NCBI GenBank assembly: GCA_030583745.1
Contig: CP129473.1
Span: 442,783-506,782 of the forward strand
Source: Minisyncoccota bacterium
GTDB lineage: Bacteria > Patescibacteriota > Minisyncoccia > Phycocordibacterales > BOKC01
Reading direction: 5' to 3'
DNA length: 64,000 nucleotides
Part shown: positions 28,253-31,766 of the stretch, piece by piece
Layout of the letters: every line of letters begins with the position of its first letter
How positions within the stretch are numbered: the first letter of the stretch is position 1
Notes under the pieces: model-generated
Told to the model about the DNA's origin: nothing
The model's database searches: none
What the model saw: only the letters and a program-made list of their open reading frames with translations
Made by a program: the position numbers and the translations under genes

Positions 28253-31200
28253 TTATAACTCTTCCAATTTAATACCACCTTCGCCAAATTCAATTTTCAC
28301 CTTAGTCTGCTTATAAATTTCCTTTTCCAATCCCCCTAGAGAATTTTTCAAGCTAGAATCAAAAATAAATTCGGCCTGATCTTGCGGTTTGAGGTTTTTT
28401 TTCTTTCTTAGATCCTGAATCTGGCGAACCAAATCTCGGAATCGACCTTCTTTTTCAAGTTCCGGAGTAATTTTAGAATCAAGTAAAACCTCTTCTGAAA
28501 GAGTCTCAGCAAAAATTATCTCCTTCACATTTACCTCATCCTTTACAAGATTTGTTAGCTCTTCCTGATTTTGCAGTTTCAAACTTTTAACTTCCAGTTT
28601 CCCTAAGGGTTGCCGAACTTTCAGGCCCGCCTTCGCCCTCTGTTCAAGCGCCAAAGAAACAATTCTCCTAACTTCTTTCATGTCTTCTAAAATTTTTGTT
28701 TCGAGTTTTGTATGTCGGGCTGTATTTTTAGGCCAATCTTTCAGATGAACACTTTCAGGCCCACCCTCATATTTTTCCTTCAATGATTGATAAATTAATT
28801 CAGCAAAAAACGGTATAAACGGCGCAATAATAACCGACAAATTCTCCAAAACAAAATAAGTTGTCGTCAAAGCTGTGTTTTTATCCGACTCATTTTCATC
28901 ATTTTTAAATCTGTCTCGCGAGCGCCGCAAATACCAAGTTGAAAGATCATCAACAAAATCAGTTATTGAGCGAGTCGCCCGATCAAGCGCATACCTTTCC
29001 AAAGATTGGGTGACTTCTTCAAGAAGTTCATCTAAACGAGCTAAAATCCAAATGTCTAAAACATTCGGAGAATCCGGCCGGCCTTGAACTTTTAAGCCCG
29101 ATTTTTCATAAAGTTTATAAAATTGCAAAACATTTCCAAGCCGCAACAAAACTTTTTGCATTGCTTCCTGAACGCCCTTTTCCGAAAAATTCAAATCCTG
29201 ACCACGAACAACCGGCGATGTTAAAAGATACAAACGCATTGCGTCAGCCCCATACTTTTTTACGATTTCCATCGGATCTGGATAATTTTTCAACCGCTTG
29301 GACATTTTTTGTCCGTCTTCAGCCAAAATCGTGCCATTTACTACAACAGCTTTATAAGGACTCTTACCAAAAAGCAAAGTCCCCAAGACTAGCATTGAAT
29401 AAAACCAGCCGCGGGTTTGATCCAACCCTTCAGCAATAAAATCCGCCGGGTAACCGACTGGCCGATTGAAAATTCCCGGGCGCGGATTGAAAATTTTCAG
29501 GTTTTCAAAAGGAAAATGGTTTTGAGCGTAGGGCATTGAACCGGATTCAAACCAGCAATCAAAAACTTCCGGTACCCTTTTCATTTCCCCGCCACATTTA
29601 CACTGAAATTTTATTTCATCAATAAAAGGTCTGTGAAGTTCGAGTTCAAAATTTTCATTTCTCGGTAATGGTAAATATTTTATCTCCTTAAATCCGCCGG
29701 TTTTTACGTAGTCGTCGTGAAGATTCTTCTCTGCTACAGACTGACCATCGCTCCAGCCCAAAGCGCCGGCTTCCATCATCCAAATCGGATATTCGTGAGT
29801 AACAATCAAAATGTTTTTGCCTTCATACCTTCTTTCCATTTCAGAAAGAAAATCACAAACTCTTTTTTTGACATCAGAAAGATTCTCTCCACCATTCGGC
29901 CTTTTGGTTACCTTCTCTAAAGTTGAAGAAAAATATTTCCTATACTCCTCAATCGGTTTTAGATTAAATTCTCCAGAATCTATCTCTCTAATTCTTTTGT
30001 CAAAAAAGATTTTTTCAGAAGGTAGATTTAATTCTTCAGCAATAATTTCTGTAGTTTCTTTGGTTCGGAAAAAATCTGAAGAAAAAACTAGGTCAATTCT
30101 TTCTTCCTCTCAAATGACGGGCGGTTTTTTGGGCCTCCAGACGACCCTTCTCCGTCAGATAATGCGGGTTTTCCGGTCTACCACTAACTATGTTTTTAGC
30201 ATTACTCTCGGCCTCACCATGGCGGACCAAGATGTAATTGTTTTTGGATTGAAGCTTACTGCTTAATTTTTCAACCGAACCGACAATTTCTTTAAACTCG
30301 CATTTTTCACATTTCCAAACCGGAACCGGCGCTCCCCAAAAACGGCTTCGTGAAATTGACCAATCTTTTGCATCCGCAAGCCAATTGCCAAATCGGTATT
30401 TGCCAACTTCTTCCGGCACCCATTTTATTTTCTTGTTTTCAGCGACTAACTTATCACGGTGTTTCGAAACTTCAACAAACCAAGAACTAGATGCGTAATT
30501 GAGAAGTGGCGTATCACAGCGCCAACAGTGCGGATATGAATGAACCACTTTTTTCTTTGAGAAAAGAAGCCCTTTATGCGCCAAATTTTTGATAATTTCG
30601 ATGTCAGTTCGCTGACTGTCTTCCTTGGGCTTCACAAGTAGGCCGGCAAAATCTTTAACCTCCGGTTTGAATTTACCGGTAACGTCGACGTGCTGAATAA
30701 ATGGTAGATTTTCTCTTTTTGATAATTCATAGTCTTCCGAACCGAAAGCCGGCGCGATGTGAACAATGCCTGTACCCTCTTCAAGAGACACGAAATTATC
30801 TGCATAAACTTTCCAGCCGTTTTCTCTACCTTTTAAGCTTGTGTCATTTGAGTAATAATCAAAAAGCGGCTCATATTTGAAACCAACCAATTTTTTGCCT
30901 TTAAATTCCTCAATAATTTCATACTGCTTGTCAGCCAAAACTTCGCCGGCTCGGTCCTTGGCTAAAATATAAATTTCATCTTCAAGTTTTACTTTTATAT
31001 AATCAGCTTCAGAATTTACGGCTAGCGCGACATTGCCCGGGAGTGTCCATGGCGTTGTCGTCCACGCCAATAAGTAAGTTTTTTCAGCTTTTGGAATTTG
31101 GAATTTGGAATTTGTTTGTGCTTGAGTGTTTGTAACTTGGAATTTTGCAGTAACTGATATATCGGTCACGTCGCGGTAACCTTGCGCGACTTCAAAATTG

Positions 31201-31766
31201 GAAAGGGTAGTTTCGCATCTAGGACAAAGATGCATTGACTTGAAACCCTCATAAACCATTCCCTTGTCATACAATGTCTTAAAAGCCCACCAAACTGATT
31301 CAGTATAAGAAGCATCCATTGTTCGATAATCTTTTTCCATATCAACAAATCGGCCGAAGCGCGGGATTTGTCGGCGCCACTCGTCGGCATAACGCAAAAC
31401 GCTATCCGAAGCTTTTTGGTTGAAATTATGGATTCCATAATCAATAATGTCTTTTTTGGTTTTTAGACCGATTTCCTGTTCAATTAAATTTTCAACCGGC
31501 AGGCCATGGCAATCCCAACCCCACCTTCTTGGCACGTGATATCCCTGCATAGTTTTGAAGCGAGGAATTACGTCCTTAATTGTTCCAGCTAAAATGTGGC
31601 CATAATGAGGTAAACCTGTCGCAAAAGGTGGACCGTCATAAAAAATGAAAGTGCCTTCTGGCGAAGGTTTTTGAAGTGTTTTTTCAAAAATTTTGTTTTC
31701 TTGCCAAAATTTCAGGATTTCTTCTTCCCTCTCGGAAAGCTGGTTTTTATTAGACTCGTCGGACAT
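28253..31766 (-). CDS. ileS: Isoleucyl-tRNA synthetase with an inserted histidine-phosphatase (PGAM-like) domain; reading frame broken by a 1-nt frameshift at ~30096-30110 (tracked as two ORFs, 30093..31766 and 28253..29839)
   Basis: N-terminal part: PHYGH, WTTTPWTLPGN (editing), DWSISRSRFWGAPVPVWKCEKC. C-terminal part: FQCKCGGEMKRVPEVFDCWFESGS, KMSKRL. Between them LVRHGEAESN...TARHLRG | RIDLVFSSDFFRTKETTEII...ILIVTHEY continues once one A is removed from the run gaagaaagaa. Confidence 0.85.
29660..30243 (-). other. Histidine-phosphatase superfamily (phosphoglycerate-mutase-like) domain embedded in ileS, split between CxxC and CxC of the zinc knuckle
   Basis: RHG motif YILVRHGEAESNAKNIVSGRPENPHYLTEKGRLEAQ; IDLVFSSDFFRTKETTEIIA; second His motif ILIVTHEYPIWMM. 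Confidence 0.75.

What the first reader, a model, noticed from the sequence alone, without database searches (positions are those of the whole stretch)
28253..31766. Isoleucyl-tRNA synthetase carrying an embedded histidine-phosphatase (PGAM-like) domain, with a single-base frameshift inside the insert
The two long minus-strand ORFs 30093..31766 and 28253..29839 are the N- and C-terminal halves of one IleRS, not two genes. The N-terminal half carries HYGH, the editing domain and ...RFWGAPVPVWKCEKC. The C-terminal half carries CKCGG...VFDCWFESGS and KMSKRL.

Between the two Cys pairs of the zinc knuckle sits a ~200-aa domain with the histidine-phosphatase branch-1 signature: LVRHGEAESN...PLTEKGRLEAQ...IDLVFSSDFFRTKETTEII...ILIVTHEY.

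I translated the 253-nt 'gap' on the minus strand. The C-terminal frame is open from 30109 downward as EERIDLVFSSDFFRTKETTEIIAEELNLPSEKIFFDKRIREIDSGEFNLKPIEEYRKYFSSTLEKVTKRPNGGENLSDVKKRVCDFLSEMERRY. The break is therefore one extra A in the run gaagaaagaa at about 30096-30110.

A catalytic-looking phosphatase domain grafted onto an aminoacyl-tRNA synthetase at the tip of its zinc ribbon is not a described IleRS architecture, as far as I know. The frameshift could be a sequencing error, a recent pseudogenisation, or a slippery site.
Basis: partly seen in the sequence, partly recalled or inferred. Interest (0 to 1): 0.8.

Follow-up and report, generated by a model that had tools for sequence, protein, structure and literature searches.

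The report
IleRS with a nested histidine phosphatase
The two ORFs are one isoleucyl-tRNA synthetase gene with a catalytically intact histidine phosphatase nested in its CP3 zinc knuckle; this uncharacterised architecture is common in Parcubacteria-type bacteria and comes from a phosphatase gene that elsewhere sits just upstream of ileS, while the one-base frameshift is a local lesion of this contig.

Summary
Minus-strand ORFs 30093..31766 and 28253..29839 (frame open from 30109) are one type-2 IleRS, broken by a single extra base near 30099. The repaired 1170-aa protein scores as ileS (915 bits). It carries a His_Phos_1 domain (E 9e-34) at residues ~503-708, between the two Cys pairs of the CP3 zinc knuckle.

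The architecture is not rare. All 120 closest database proteins are intact and carry it. So do 99 of the best 150 clusters at 50% identity and 59 of 63 complete species-level loci. Catalytic residues are essentially invariant (Arg, His and the second His 99/99; second Arg 98/99; Glu 95/99). I found no paper describing it.

New here: in sister Patescibacteria the orthologous phosphatase is a separate gene in a conserved argS-phosphatase-ileS-recO block. ileS follows it in 46 of 51 informative loci, with a median gap of about 4 nt. In nested lineages that slot is empty.

The frameshift is absent from a relative with 96.5% identical ileS DNA. It lies in a small patch of substitutions, and downstream dN/dS is 0.11. 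It is most likely an assembly error or a very recent mutation, not a programmed shift. The phosphatase substrate is unknown.

The parts
30093..31766 (-). ileS 5' part (frame A, 557 codons plus TGA). It encodes the first half of the Rossmann fold with HYGH, the CP1 editing domain, CP2, the first half of the CP3 zinc knuckle and the first ~54 residues of the phosphatase insert.
28253..30109 (-). ileS 3' part (frame B, open for 618 codons; the first ATG is only at 29839). It encodes the rest of the phosphatase insert, the second half of the zinc knuckle, the second half of the Rossmann fold with KMSKR, the anticodon-binding domain and the DUF5915 C-terminal domain.
30093..30113 (-). Zone where both frames are open and the single extra base must lie. 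BLAST places the insertion at about 30099.
29642..30260 (-). Nested His_Phos_1 (histidine phosphatase, branch 1) domain, residues ~503-708 of the repaired protein. It replaces the ~8-residue linker that solved type-2 IleRS structures have at this point.
30216..30224 (-). RHG motif (Arg515, nucleophile His516, Gly517).
30065..30067 (-). Arg567, the second phosphate-binding arginine (R62 of the insert alignment). It lies downstream of the frameshift.
29984..29986 (-). Glu594, the general acid (E89 of the insert alignment).
29795..29797 (-). His657, the second catalytic histidine (H152 of the insert alignment).
30300..30311 (-). First Cys pair of the CP3 zinc knuckle (Cys486, Cys489).
29594..29602 (-). 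Second Cys pair of the CP3 zinc knuckle (Cys722, Cys724).
31596..31607 (-). HYGH, the class I HIGH signature.
29294..29308 (-). KMSKR, the class I KMSKS signature.
33308..35011 (-). argS, the upstream member of the conserved argS-(phosphatase)-ileS-recO block. In this window a 452-aa ORF with no family match (31905..33263) lies between argS and ileS.
27659..28252 (-). recO-like gene (RecO_N). It abuts the ileS stop codon and is the downstream member of the conserved block.

Best explanation
What it is (shown). This is a single ileS gene encoding a bifunctional protein. The body is a canonical type-2 (eukaryote-like) IleRS with HIGH, KMSKS and editing-domain motifs. A complete branch-1 histidine phosphatase of about 205 aa is nested in the CP3 subdomain, between the CxxC and CxC halves of its zinc knuckle.

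How common it is (shown). The window copy belongs to a large, old family of such proteins in Parcubacteria/Paceibacteria-type Patescibacteria.

Phosphatase mechanism (inferred from residue conservation and fold). The domain is an active phosphomonoesterase. It would work like PhoE, PspA or CobC. His516 attacks the phosphate and forms a phospho-histidine intermediate. Arg515, Arg567 and His657 hold the phosphate, and Glu594 is the general acid.

Origin (distribution shown, direction inferred). The domain derives from a free-standing phosphatase gene. In sister lineages that gene is the tightly coupled upstream neighbour of ileS in a conserved argS-phosphatase-ileS-recO block. In nested lineages the slot is empty.

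Function (open). My best guess is a housekeeping phosphatase acting on a small phospho-metabolite or nucleotide, kept at fixed stoichiometry with IleRS. Direct coupling to tRNA(Ile) or to aminoacylation is possible but untested.

The frameshift (inferred). It is a one-base lesion private to this contig. It is most likely an assembly or consensus error at a strain-variable patch, or else a very recent mutation. It is not a designed feature.
For: Architecture: Pfam and NCBIfam scores. Solved IleRS structures align as residues 12-502 and 709-1084, with only ~8 residues where the insert sits. CP3 is named, and described as zinc-binding in Thermus IleRS, in PMC7191050.

Structure models:
- Insert alone: pLDDT 96.0. 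Top Foldseek hits are iPSP1 (4IJ5/4IJ6), CobC (6E4B) and PhoE (1H2E).
- Full-length P0121: pLDDT 88.9, pTM 0.82, no low-confidence linkers. It matches type-2 IleRS (7D5C TMt 0.87, 1ILE 0.85, 8C8U 0.81).

Family size:
- 120 of 120 best hits are intact proteins of 1150-1217 aa with PF00133 plus PF00300.
- 59 of 63 complete species-representative loci are single frames of at least 1100 aa.
- 99 of the best 150 clusters at 50% identity carry the insert.

Catalytic conservation: R 99/99, H 99/99, second R 98/99, E 95/99 (plus 2 Asp), second H 99/99. The same residues are invariant or nearly so in alignment A1.

Same insertion point in every nested protein.

Operon link: the standalone orthologue is followed by ileS in 46 of 51 informative loci and preceded by argS in 47 of 50. 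The gap to ileS is at most 72 nt in 33 of 37 full pairs.

Frameshift:
- It is the only uncompensated 1-nt indel inside a gene in ~18 kb aligned to the relative.
- The relative's intact gene was assembled twice independently.
- dN/dS downstream of the shift is 0.106.
- The indel sits in a patch of 7 differences within ~55 nt, inside otherwise near-identical sequence.
- The exact truncated product is not on record in any other assembly.
Against: - No activity data exist. The substrate and any coupling to IleRS are inferred only.
- The conserved gene order may reflect conserved synteny of housekeeping genes rather than shared function.
- The only ArgRS-phosphatase fusion found is a singleton, so the link is not general to aminoacyl-tRNA synthetases.
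- The NJ trees interleave nested and adjacent forms. The history may therefore involve several insertions, or a duplication followed by reciprocal loss. I could not resolve this, because the trees carry no support values.
- For the frameshift, an inserted G in an A run is not a classic homopolymer-length error, and the rest of the window shows no other broken genes. A real mutation therefore remains plausible.
Confidence: 0.75

Rival explanations
1. The frameshift is real in this strain. Either ileS is a fresh pseudogene, or IleRS now works as two non-covalently assembled fragments with the phosphatase destroyed.
For: - The window shows no other sign of indel-prone sequencing.
- The inserted base is not a simple homopolymer miscount.
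- The surrounding patch of substitutions looks like imported divergent DNA.
- From my own knowledge, E. coli IleRS tolerates being split at several sites (Shiba and Schimmel, 1992; I did not look this up here).
Against: - IleRS is essential, and no second ileS is seen in the window.
- dN/dS downstream of the shift is 0.106, so there is no sign of relaxation.
- The C-terminal frame has no start codon for 90 codons. Any restart at ATG 29839 would lose Arg567 and Glu594.
- None of the 59 intact species-level loci is split inside the insert.
- The exact truncated product is not seen in any other assembly.
Confidence: 0.25
2. The break is a programmed +1 ribosomal frameshift or a transcriptional slippage site that regulates IleRS or phosphatase output.
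For: - The frame-A stop is UGA followed by C (AAU UGA C). That is the weak-terminator context of the prfB shift site (my own knowledge).
- A +1 shift there would give a protein of exactly the normal length.
- A GAGGA element lies upstream.
Against: - The site is absent from the closest relative (ileS DNA 96.5% identical) and from all 120 closest proteins, which are contiguous.
- The A run is only 3 nt, too short for transcriptional slippage.
- The spacing of the SD-like element is wrong for +1 stimulation.
- SD-like motifs are rare in this genome: 8 of 39 genes.
- The P-site tRNA(Asn) would re-pair poorly on AUU.
Confidence: 0.03
3. The nested domain is a catalytically dead structural or regulatory module, for example a ligand sensor or docking surface, and not an enzyme.
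For: Pseudo-enzymes are common among domains added to aminoacyl-tRNA synthetases (my own knowledge). Gly of RHG and Asn17 vary in about 10-14% of clusters. One family member has Ser in place of the second His (P0231).
Against: The five core catalytic residues are retained in 95-100% of 99 clusters, even where insert identity falls to 25-30%. The standalone orthologues keep the same residues.
Confidence: 0.07
4. The two ORFs are two genuine genes: a truncated IleRS-like protein and a separate C-terminal protein.
For: None beyond the ORF calls themselves.
Against: Both halves are needed for any class I synthetase. The orthologues are contiguous. The second frame continues the phosphatase domain residue for residue.
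Confidence: 0.01

Closest known systems
Type-2 (eukaryote-like, mupirocin-insensitive) bacterial IleRS, e.g. Priestia megaterium IleRS2 (8C8U) and Thermus thermophilus IleRS (1ILE)
   Same: It has the same domain order, the HIGH and KMSKS signatures, the CP1 editing domain, CP2 and CP3, and a CP3 zinc knuckle as in the Thermus enzyme. Sequence scores are 736 bits to 8C8U and 716 bits to 1ILE, against about 300 bits to type-1 enzymes. Model TMt is 0.81-0.87.
   Different: A ~205-aa catalytic domain replaces the ~8-residue CP3 linker between 'IGSxxEL' and 'DLHRPxID'. No solved IleRS has anything at that position.
Small branch-1 histidine phosphatases: Hydrogenobacter thermophilus phosphoserine phosphatase iPSP1/PspA (4IJ5), Geobacillus PhoE (1H2E), CobC alpha-ribazole phosphatase (6E4B, 6NRU)
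   Same: It has the same fold (Foldseek E about 1e-13 to 1e-14, TM about 0.75), the same catalytic residues (RHG, Arg, Glu, His) and the same short form without the dPGM-specific insertions.
   Different: Identity is only 22-30%. Scores fall far below the NCBIfam cut-offs of every named subfamily. It is nested inside another enzyme, and its substrate is unknown.
Free-standing phosphatase gene of the Patescibacterial argS-phosphatase-ileS-recO block (e.g. L070 3989-4558, L081 3989-4675)
   Same: It is an orthologous domain (35-47% identical to the insert) with the same family-specific motifs and the same chromosomal neighbourhood.
   Different: It is a separate 188-230-aa protein, and the adjacent IleRS lacks the insert. 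It accompanies two different IleRS lineages.
NCBIfam NF040702 'isoleucine--tRNA ligase, N-acetyltransferase domain-containing'
   Same: It is a precedent for a bacterial IleRS that carries an extra catalytic domain.
   Different: The added domain is different (GNAT). The window protein scores 321 bits against a cut-off of 1999, so it is not a member. I could not check where the GNAT domain sits.
Bifunctional RNase H / acid phosphatase (NF005567, the Rv2228c type)
   Same: A His_Phos_1 phosphatase is fused to an enzyme that acts on nucleic acids. The insert scores 81.5 bits to the phosphatase half of this model.
   Different: That protein is an end-to-end fusion, not a nested one, and has a different partner. 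The score is below the cut-off of 326.

Membership tests
Isoleucine--tRNA ligase (TIGR00392 ileS equivalog) | Whole-protein score above the curated cut-off | tested here: met
Isoleucine--tRNA ligase (TIGR00392 ileS equivalog) | Class I HIGH and KMSKS signatures and the CP1 editing-domain motif | tested here: met
   HYGH at residues 54-57, KMSKR at 820-824 and WTTTPWT at 235-241.
Isoleucine--tRNA ligase (TIGR00392 ileS equivalog) | One uninterrupted reading frame | tested here: not met
   In this window the frame is broken by one extra base at about 30099. It is intact in the closest relative (P0121; ileS DNA 96.5% identical) and in 59 of 63 complete loci.
Type-2 IleRS | Closer to eukaryote-like or IleRS2 structures than to type-1 structures | tested here: met
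   716-744 bits to 9W01, 8C8U, 1ILE and 7D5C, against 259-300 bits to the type-1 structures 1FFY, 8C9E and 8WNF. Foldseek ranks them in the same order.
Mupirocin-resistance IleRS MupA / MupB (NF000257 / NF000258) | Score above the exception-model cut-off | tested here: not met
   763 and 767 bits against cut-offs of 1900.
His_Phos_1 (PF00300), histidine phosphatase superfamily branch 1 | Profile score above the gathering threshold | tested here: met
   117.2 bits (121.4 bits for the insert alone) against a threshold of 21.7.
His_Phos_1 (PF00300), histidine phosphatase superfamily branch 1 | Catalytic core: RHG, a second Arg, the Glu acid and a second His | tested here: met
   Arg515-His516-Gly517, Arg567, Glu594 and His657 in the window. 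These residues are conserved in 95-100% of 99 clusters.
His_Phos_1 (PF00300), histidine phosphatase superfamily branch 1 | The alpha/beta fold of the superfamily | tested here: met
   AF2 pLDDT 96.0. Foldseek probability 1.00 to 4IJ5, 1H2E and 6E4B.
His_Phos_1 (PF00300), histidine phosphatase superfamily branch 1 | Phosphatase or mutase activity through a phospho-histidine intermediate | not testable with these tools
   This needs an enzyme assay.
Cofactor-dependent phosphoglycerate mutase (NF038349 dPGM_arch and the bacterial dPGM models) | Score above the equivalog cut-off | tested here: not met
   91.1 bits against a cut-off of 225. The bacterial dPGM models score 37-56 bits against cut-offs of 261-320.
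Phosphoserine phosphatase PspA (NF045917) | Score above the equivalog cut-off | tested here: not met
   76.3 bits against a cut-off of 350, although iPSP1 is the closest solved structure.
Alpha-ribazole phosphatase CobC (TIGR03162) | Score above the equivalog cut-off | tested here: not met
   74.2 bits against a cut-off of 162.9.
Programmed +1 frameshift of the prfB type | Shift site conserved among orthologues | tested here: not met
   The closest relative and all 120 best hits have a contiguous frame.
Programmed +1 frameshift of the prfB type | Slippery P-site codon and an SD-like stimulator about 3 nt upstream | tested here: not met
   The sequence is GAGGAAGAAAG AAU UGA C. The spacing is about 7 nt, AAU to AUU re-pairs poorly, and SD-like motifs are rare in this genome.

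The most novel reading that the evidence does not exclude
The phosphatase may be mechanistically coupled to IleRS rather than merely co-expressed with it. Held rigidly on CP3 next to the catalytic Rossmann fold, it could remove a phosphate that blocks aminoacylation. Candidate substrates are a 3'- or 2',3'-cyclic-phosphate end on damaged tRNA, or a phosphorylated inhibitor or amino-acid analogue. That would be a new kind of repair or proof-reading activity built into an aminoacyl-tRNA synthetase.

The evidence does not exclude this. The gene pair is kept with a gap of about 4 nt across deep lineages. It persists even where the IleRS type has been replaced. The domain has been relocated into IleRS at one fixed site.
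Probability: 0.2. Interest if true: 0.85.

Novelty: new variant of a known kind. Interest (0 to 1): 0.6.

Why it matters
Aminoacyl-tRNA synthetases rarely acquire a second, fully catalytic domain in bacteria. Here one is nested inside the catalytic core of an essential enzyme and has been conserved, with its active site intact, across a whole radiation of ultra-small bacteria.

The free-standing form is the immediate, probably translationally coupled (median gap about 4 nt), upstream neighbour of ileS in sister lineages. That provides a gene-fusion-plus-neighbourhood argument for a functional link, which makes the question directly testable. One can express an intact orthologue, screen phospho-substrates including phosphorylated tRNA ends, and ask whether the two activities influence each other.

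It is also a clear natural example of a gene turning into a domain inserted within its neighbour.

For annotation, it shows that these ~1170-aa 'class I tRNA ligase family proteins' are bifunctional. It also shows that this window's two ORFs should be merged.

Tried and rejected
1. Searching with the insert plus flanks returned only fragments of at most 502 aa. It was useless for finding full-length architectures, so I repeated the search with the full-length query.
2. Ribosome-binding-site argument for or against a restart at ATG 29839: SD-like motifs precede only 8 of 39 long ORFs, so the test is uninformative.
3. Looking for the exact 557-aa truncated product in other assemblies, to show that the frameshift is real: nothing is on record. 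This is weak negative evidence only.
4. A general aaRS-phosphatase link through an ArgRS-phosphatase fusion: L111 reads argS in frame into the phosphatase. It is a singleton, because the other 119 of the 120 best hits, all ArgRS, lack PF00300. I rejected it as a conserved architecture.
5. Functional clues from other neighbours: the ORF between ileS and recO in ten adjacent-type loci has no Pfam match. The 452-aa ORF between argS and ileS in the window has no family and is unrelated to the ORF in the equivalent place in L083.
6. Assigning the domain to a named phosphatase subfamily (dPGM, PspA, CobC, GpmB, SixA): all scores are far below the curated cut-offs.
7. Counting insertion events with NJ trees of IleRS and of the phosphatase: nested and adjacent forms interleave, but without support values I do not trust the number of events.
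8. Literature searches found nothing on this architecture. One search failed on term syntax.
9. I could not obtain model coordinates, so the orientation of the phosphatase active site relative to the tRNA path could not be measured.
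Full report
**1. Observation**

On the minus strand, ORF 30093..31766 (557 aa) ends ...KTARHLRGRKN*. A second frame, offset by +1, is open from 30109 to 28253 (618 codons). It begins EEERIDLVFSSDFFRTKETT.... That frame has no ATG, GTG or TTG for its first 90 codons. No other open frame of at least 120 codons in the 64-kb window has such an extension.

Joining the frames within the 21-nt overlap gives a 1170-aa protein. Its family scores are:
- tRNA-synt_1, 2.9e-135
- His_Phos_1, 9.3e-34, residues 512-672
- Anticodon_1, 3.3e-34
- DUF5915
- TIGR00392 ileS, 914.8 bits against a cut-off of 621.4

**2. The frameshift**

The closest database protein, P0121, is 96% identical, 1156 aa long and intact. 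Identical copies of its gene were assembled in two NCBI assemblies (L001 and L002).

The window gene and the L001 gene are 96.5% identical at the DNA level. They differ by one in-frame 42-nt block in the editing domain and by exactly one extra base in the window at about 30099 (win GGAAGAAAGAATTGACC; L001 GGAAGAAA-AATAGACA). The identity of the extra base is ambiguous. The repaired reading ...LRGRK-IDLVFSS matches P0121 (...LRGRKIDIVFSS).

Further points bear on its nature:
- Over ~18 kb of collinear alignment with L001, this is the only uncompensated single-base indel inside a gene.
- Differences between the two sequences are strongly clustered. The indel lies in a patch of 7 differences within ~55 nt, surrounded by hundreds of identical bases. 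This is what a short imported or strain-chimeric tract looks like.
- dN/dS is 0.15 over the whole gene and 0.106 downstream of the shift (10 synonymous and 4 non-synonymous differences). There is no sign of decay.
- The exact truncated product is not on record in any other assembly.
- None of the 59 intact species-representative loci is split in the insert.
- Broken copies do turn up elsewhere, for example P0009 with several local frame errors on a 733-kb contig and L158. This is the usual background of imperfect assemblies.

I conclude that the lesion is private and very recent, or artefactual. Only reads can separate those two. A programmed shift is unlikely for four reasons. The site is not conserved. 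The A run is too short for transcriptional slippage. The SD-like element is wrongly spaced. SD-like motifs are rare in this genome.

**3. Where the insert sits**

Solved IleRS structures align to the protein as two blocks, residues 12-502 and 709-1084. In human, yeast, Priestia IleRS2 and Thermus enzymes only ~8 residues connect 'IGSVxEL' to 'DLHRxxVD'.

This region is the CP3 subdomain. CP3 of Thermus IleRS carries a zinc-binding motif (PMC7191050). In the window protein the two Cys pairs (Cys486/489 and Cys722/724) flank the insert, and they are at least 90% conserved in the family.

The protein is a type-2 IleRS. It scores 716-744 bits to type-2 and eukaryotic structures, against 259-300 bits to type-1 structures.

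An AF2 model of the intact relative has pLDDT 88.9 and pTM 0.82. The insert and both linkers score between about 88 and 96, so the domain is predicted to be firmly attached rather than on a floppy tether. The body matches 7D5C, 1ILE and 8C8U with TMt 0.81-0.87.

**4. What the insert is**

Modelled alone it gives pLDDT 96.0 and the histidine-phosphatase fold. The nearest solved structures are Hydrogenobacter phosphoserine phosphatase iPSP1 (4IJ5/4IJ6), CobC (6E4B, 6NRU), PhoE (1H2E, 1EBB) and Rv2419c. It falls far below the curated cut-offs for dPGM, PspA, CobC and GpmB. It is therefore a short phosphatase-type member with no assignable substrate.

In 40 diverse inserts, Arg10, His11, Gly12, Arg62 and Glu89 are invariant, and Asn17 and His152 are at least 90% conserved. 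In 99 clusters at 50% identity, with insert identity down to 25-30%, the counts are Arg 99/99, His 99/99, second Arg 98/99, Glu 95/99 (plus 2 Asp) and second His 99/99. This pattern indicates selection for catalysis. It is an inference, not a measurement.

**5. How common it is**

- All 120 best hits to the repaired protein are intact proteins of 1150-1217 aa with both Pfam domains. They come from Parcubacteria-group lineages (Magasanik-, Taylor-, Wolfe- and Niyogibacteria, Paceibacterota). Some are in UniRef and nr, under generic names.
- A scan of one genome per species found 80 loci. Of the 63 complete ones, 59 are single frames of at least 1100 aa.
- An exhaustive profile-free search of 1.84 billion cluster representatives put the insert in 99 of the best 150 IleRS clusters.
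- Four literature searches found no description of the architecture.

**6.

The four 'short' loci in the genome scan are free-standing phosphatases of 189-228 aa. Each lies immediately upstream, on the same strand, of an ileS without the insert.

A metagenome scan with an alignment of such standalone proteins gave 80 loci: 17 nested, 51 adjacent and 12 other or uninformative.
- Of 51 standalone genes with at least 500 nt of downstream sequence, 46 are followed by ileS.
- Of 50 with at least 500 nt of upstream sequence, 47 are preceded by argS.
- recO usually follows ileS.
- The phosphatase-ileS gap is at most 72 nt in 33 of 37 full pairs, with a median of about 4 nt.

In nested-type loci argS abuts ileS and the slot is empty (L147, L159, L165, L001). 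The window keeps argS ... ileS-recO, with an extra 452-aa ORF between argS and ileS.

Every nested protein has the domain at the same CP3 position.

The standalone gene accompanies two different IleRS lineages, and the phosphatase tree does not follow the IleRS type. The pairing has therefore survived replacement of the synthetase. In both NJ trees nested and adjacent forms interleave within the type-2 lineage. This suggests more than one transition, or a duplication followed by reciprocal loss. The trees have no support values, so I leave this open.

A single argS-phosphatase read-through fusion (L111) is not a conserved architecture.

**7. Mechanism**

Shown:
- one gene
- a canonical IleRS body
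- a complete, conserved phosphatase active site
- a fixed insertion point
- a conserved operon partnership in sister lineages

Inferred:
- The domain is an active phosphomonoesterase using a phospho-His516 intermediate.
- It derives from the upstream gene.
- Physical linkage to IleRS is selected.

Unknown: the substrate, and whether the two activities interact. My estimate is about 50% an independent housekeeping phosphatase kept in step with IleRS, 20-30% a direct role on tRNA(Ile) or aminoacylation chemistry, and less than 10% non-catalytic.

**8. Verdict**

The finding is real and correctly read. The frameshift is probably trivial. The architecture is an abundant but unstudied variant of IleRS. 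The argS-phosphatase-ileS block adds an argument for a functional link, though shared housekeeping synteny remains possible.

Noticed in passing
window 1..2011 (-): The window starts inside a 23S rRNA gene. Model positions 1-1774 are spread over 2011 nt, about 240 nt more than the model, so there may be an insertion.
   Followed up: no
window 31905..33263 (-): A 452-aa ORF with a hydrophobic N-terminus and repeated GNVGIGT motifs lies between argS and ileS. It has no Pfam match. The segment 31805..33307 has no counterpart in the aligned region of the close relative L001. It occupies the slot where other lineages carry the phosphatase gene.
   Followed up: partly
window 30800..31200, 18700..21000 and 36600..38300, compared with L001: The window and the relative L001 are near-identical over most aligned 200-nt stretches, apart from sharp islands of divergence. 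One island lies inside the IleRS editing domain, with 123 differences and a 42-nt in-frame indel. This suggests mosaic recombination between strains.
   Followed up: partly
L111 5408..7570: argS reads in frame, without a stop codon, into the phosphatase, giving a 720-aa ArgRS-phosphatase fusion. It is a singleton: the other 119 of the 120 best hits, all ArgRS, lack the domain.
   Followed up: yes
L086 1124..6421: One variant of the block reads His_Phos_1, Exo_endo_phos nuclease/phosphatase, a 103-aa ORF, ileS, a Zeta_toxin/AAA_33-type P-loop kinase, then recO. A kinase plus two phosphoesterases around an aminoacyl-tRNA synthetase resembles RNA end-healing gene sets.
   Followed up: no
L090, L091, L095, L097, L098, L104, L105, L113, L118, L163 (between ileS and recO): In adjacent-type loci an ORF of 250-440 aa regularly sits between ileS and recO. 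None of the ten tested has a Pfam match. The window lacks it, because ileS abuts recO.
   Followed up: partly
P0348 (1859 aa), P0267 (1468 aa), P0271, P0354, P0357, P0302, P0370, P0355, P0353: Some insert-carrying IleRS cluster representatives are 1380-1860 aa long and align in 3-7 pieces. They seem to carry further large insertions, such as inteins or other domains.
   Followed up: no
P0191, P0212, L153, L165 (CP3 region): A few nested proteins have lost the zinc-knuckle cysteines but keep the phosphatase at the same site. The zinc site is therefore not required to hold the insert.
   Followed up: no
window 58589..61217 (+): Four consecutive plus-strand open frames overlap one another by 40-70 nt (58589-59089, 59049-60143, 60082-60669, 60597-61217). 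I did not check whether they are separate genes or another split gene.
   Followed up: no
window 5342..5465 (-); tRNA genes between 48769 and 62380: There is a ribosomal protein L10 leader (Rfam, 50.1 bits) and seven tRNA genes: His, Leu, Val, Arg (two), Ser and Trp.
   Followed up: no
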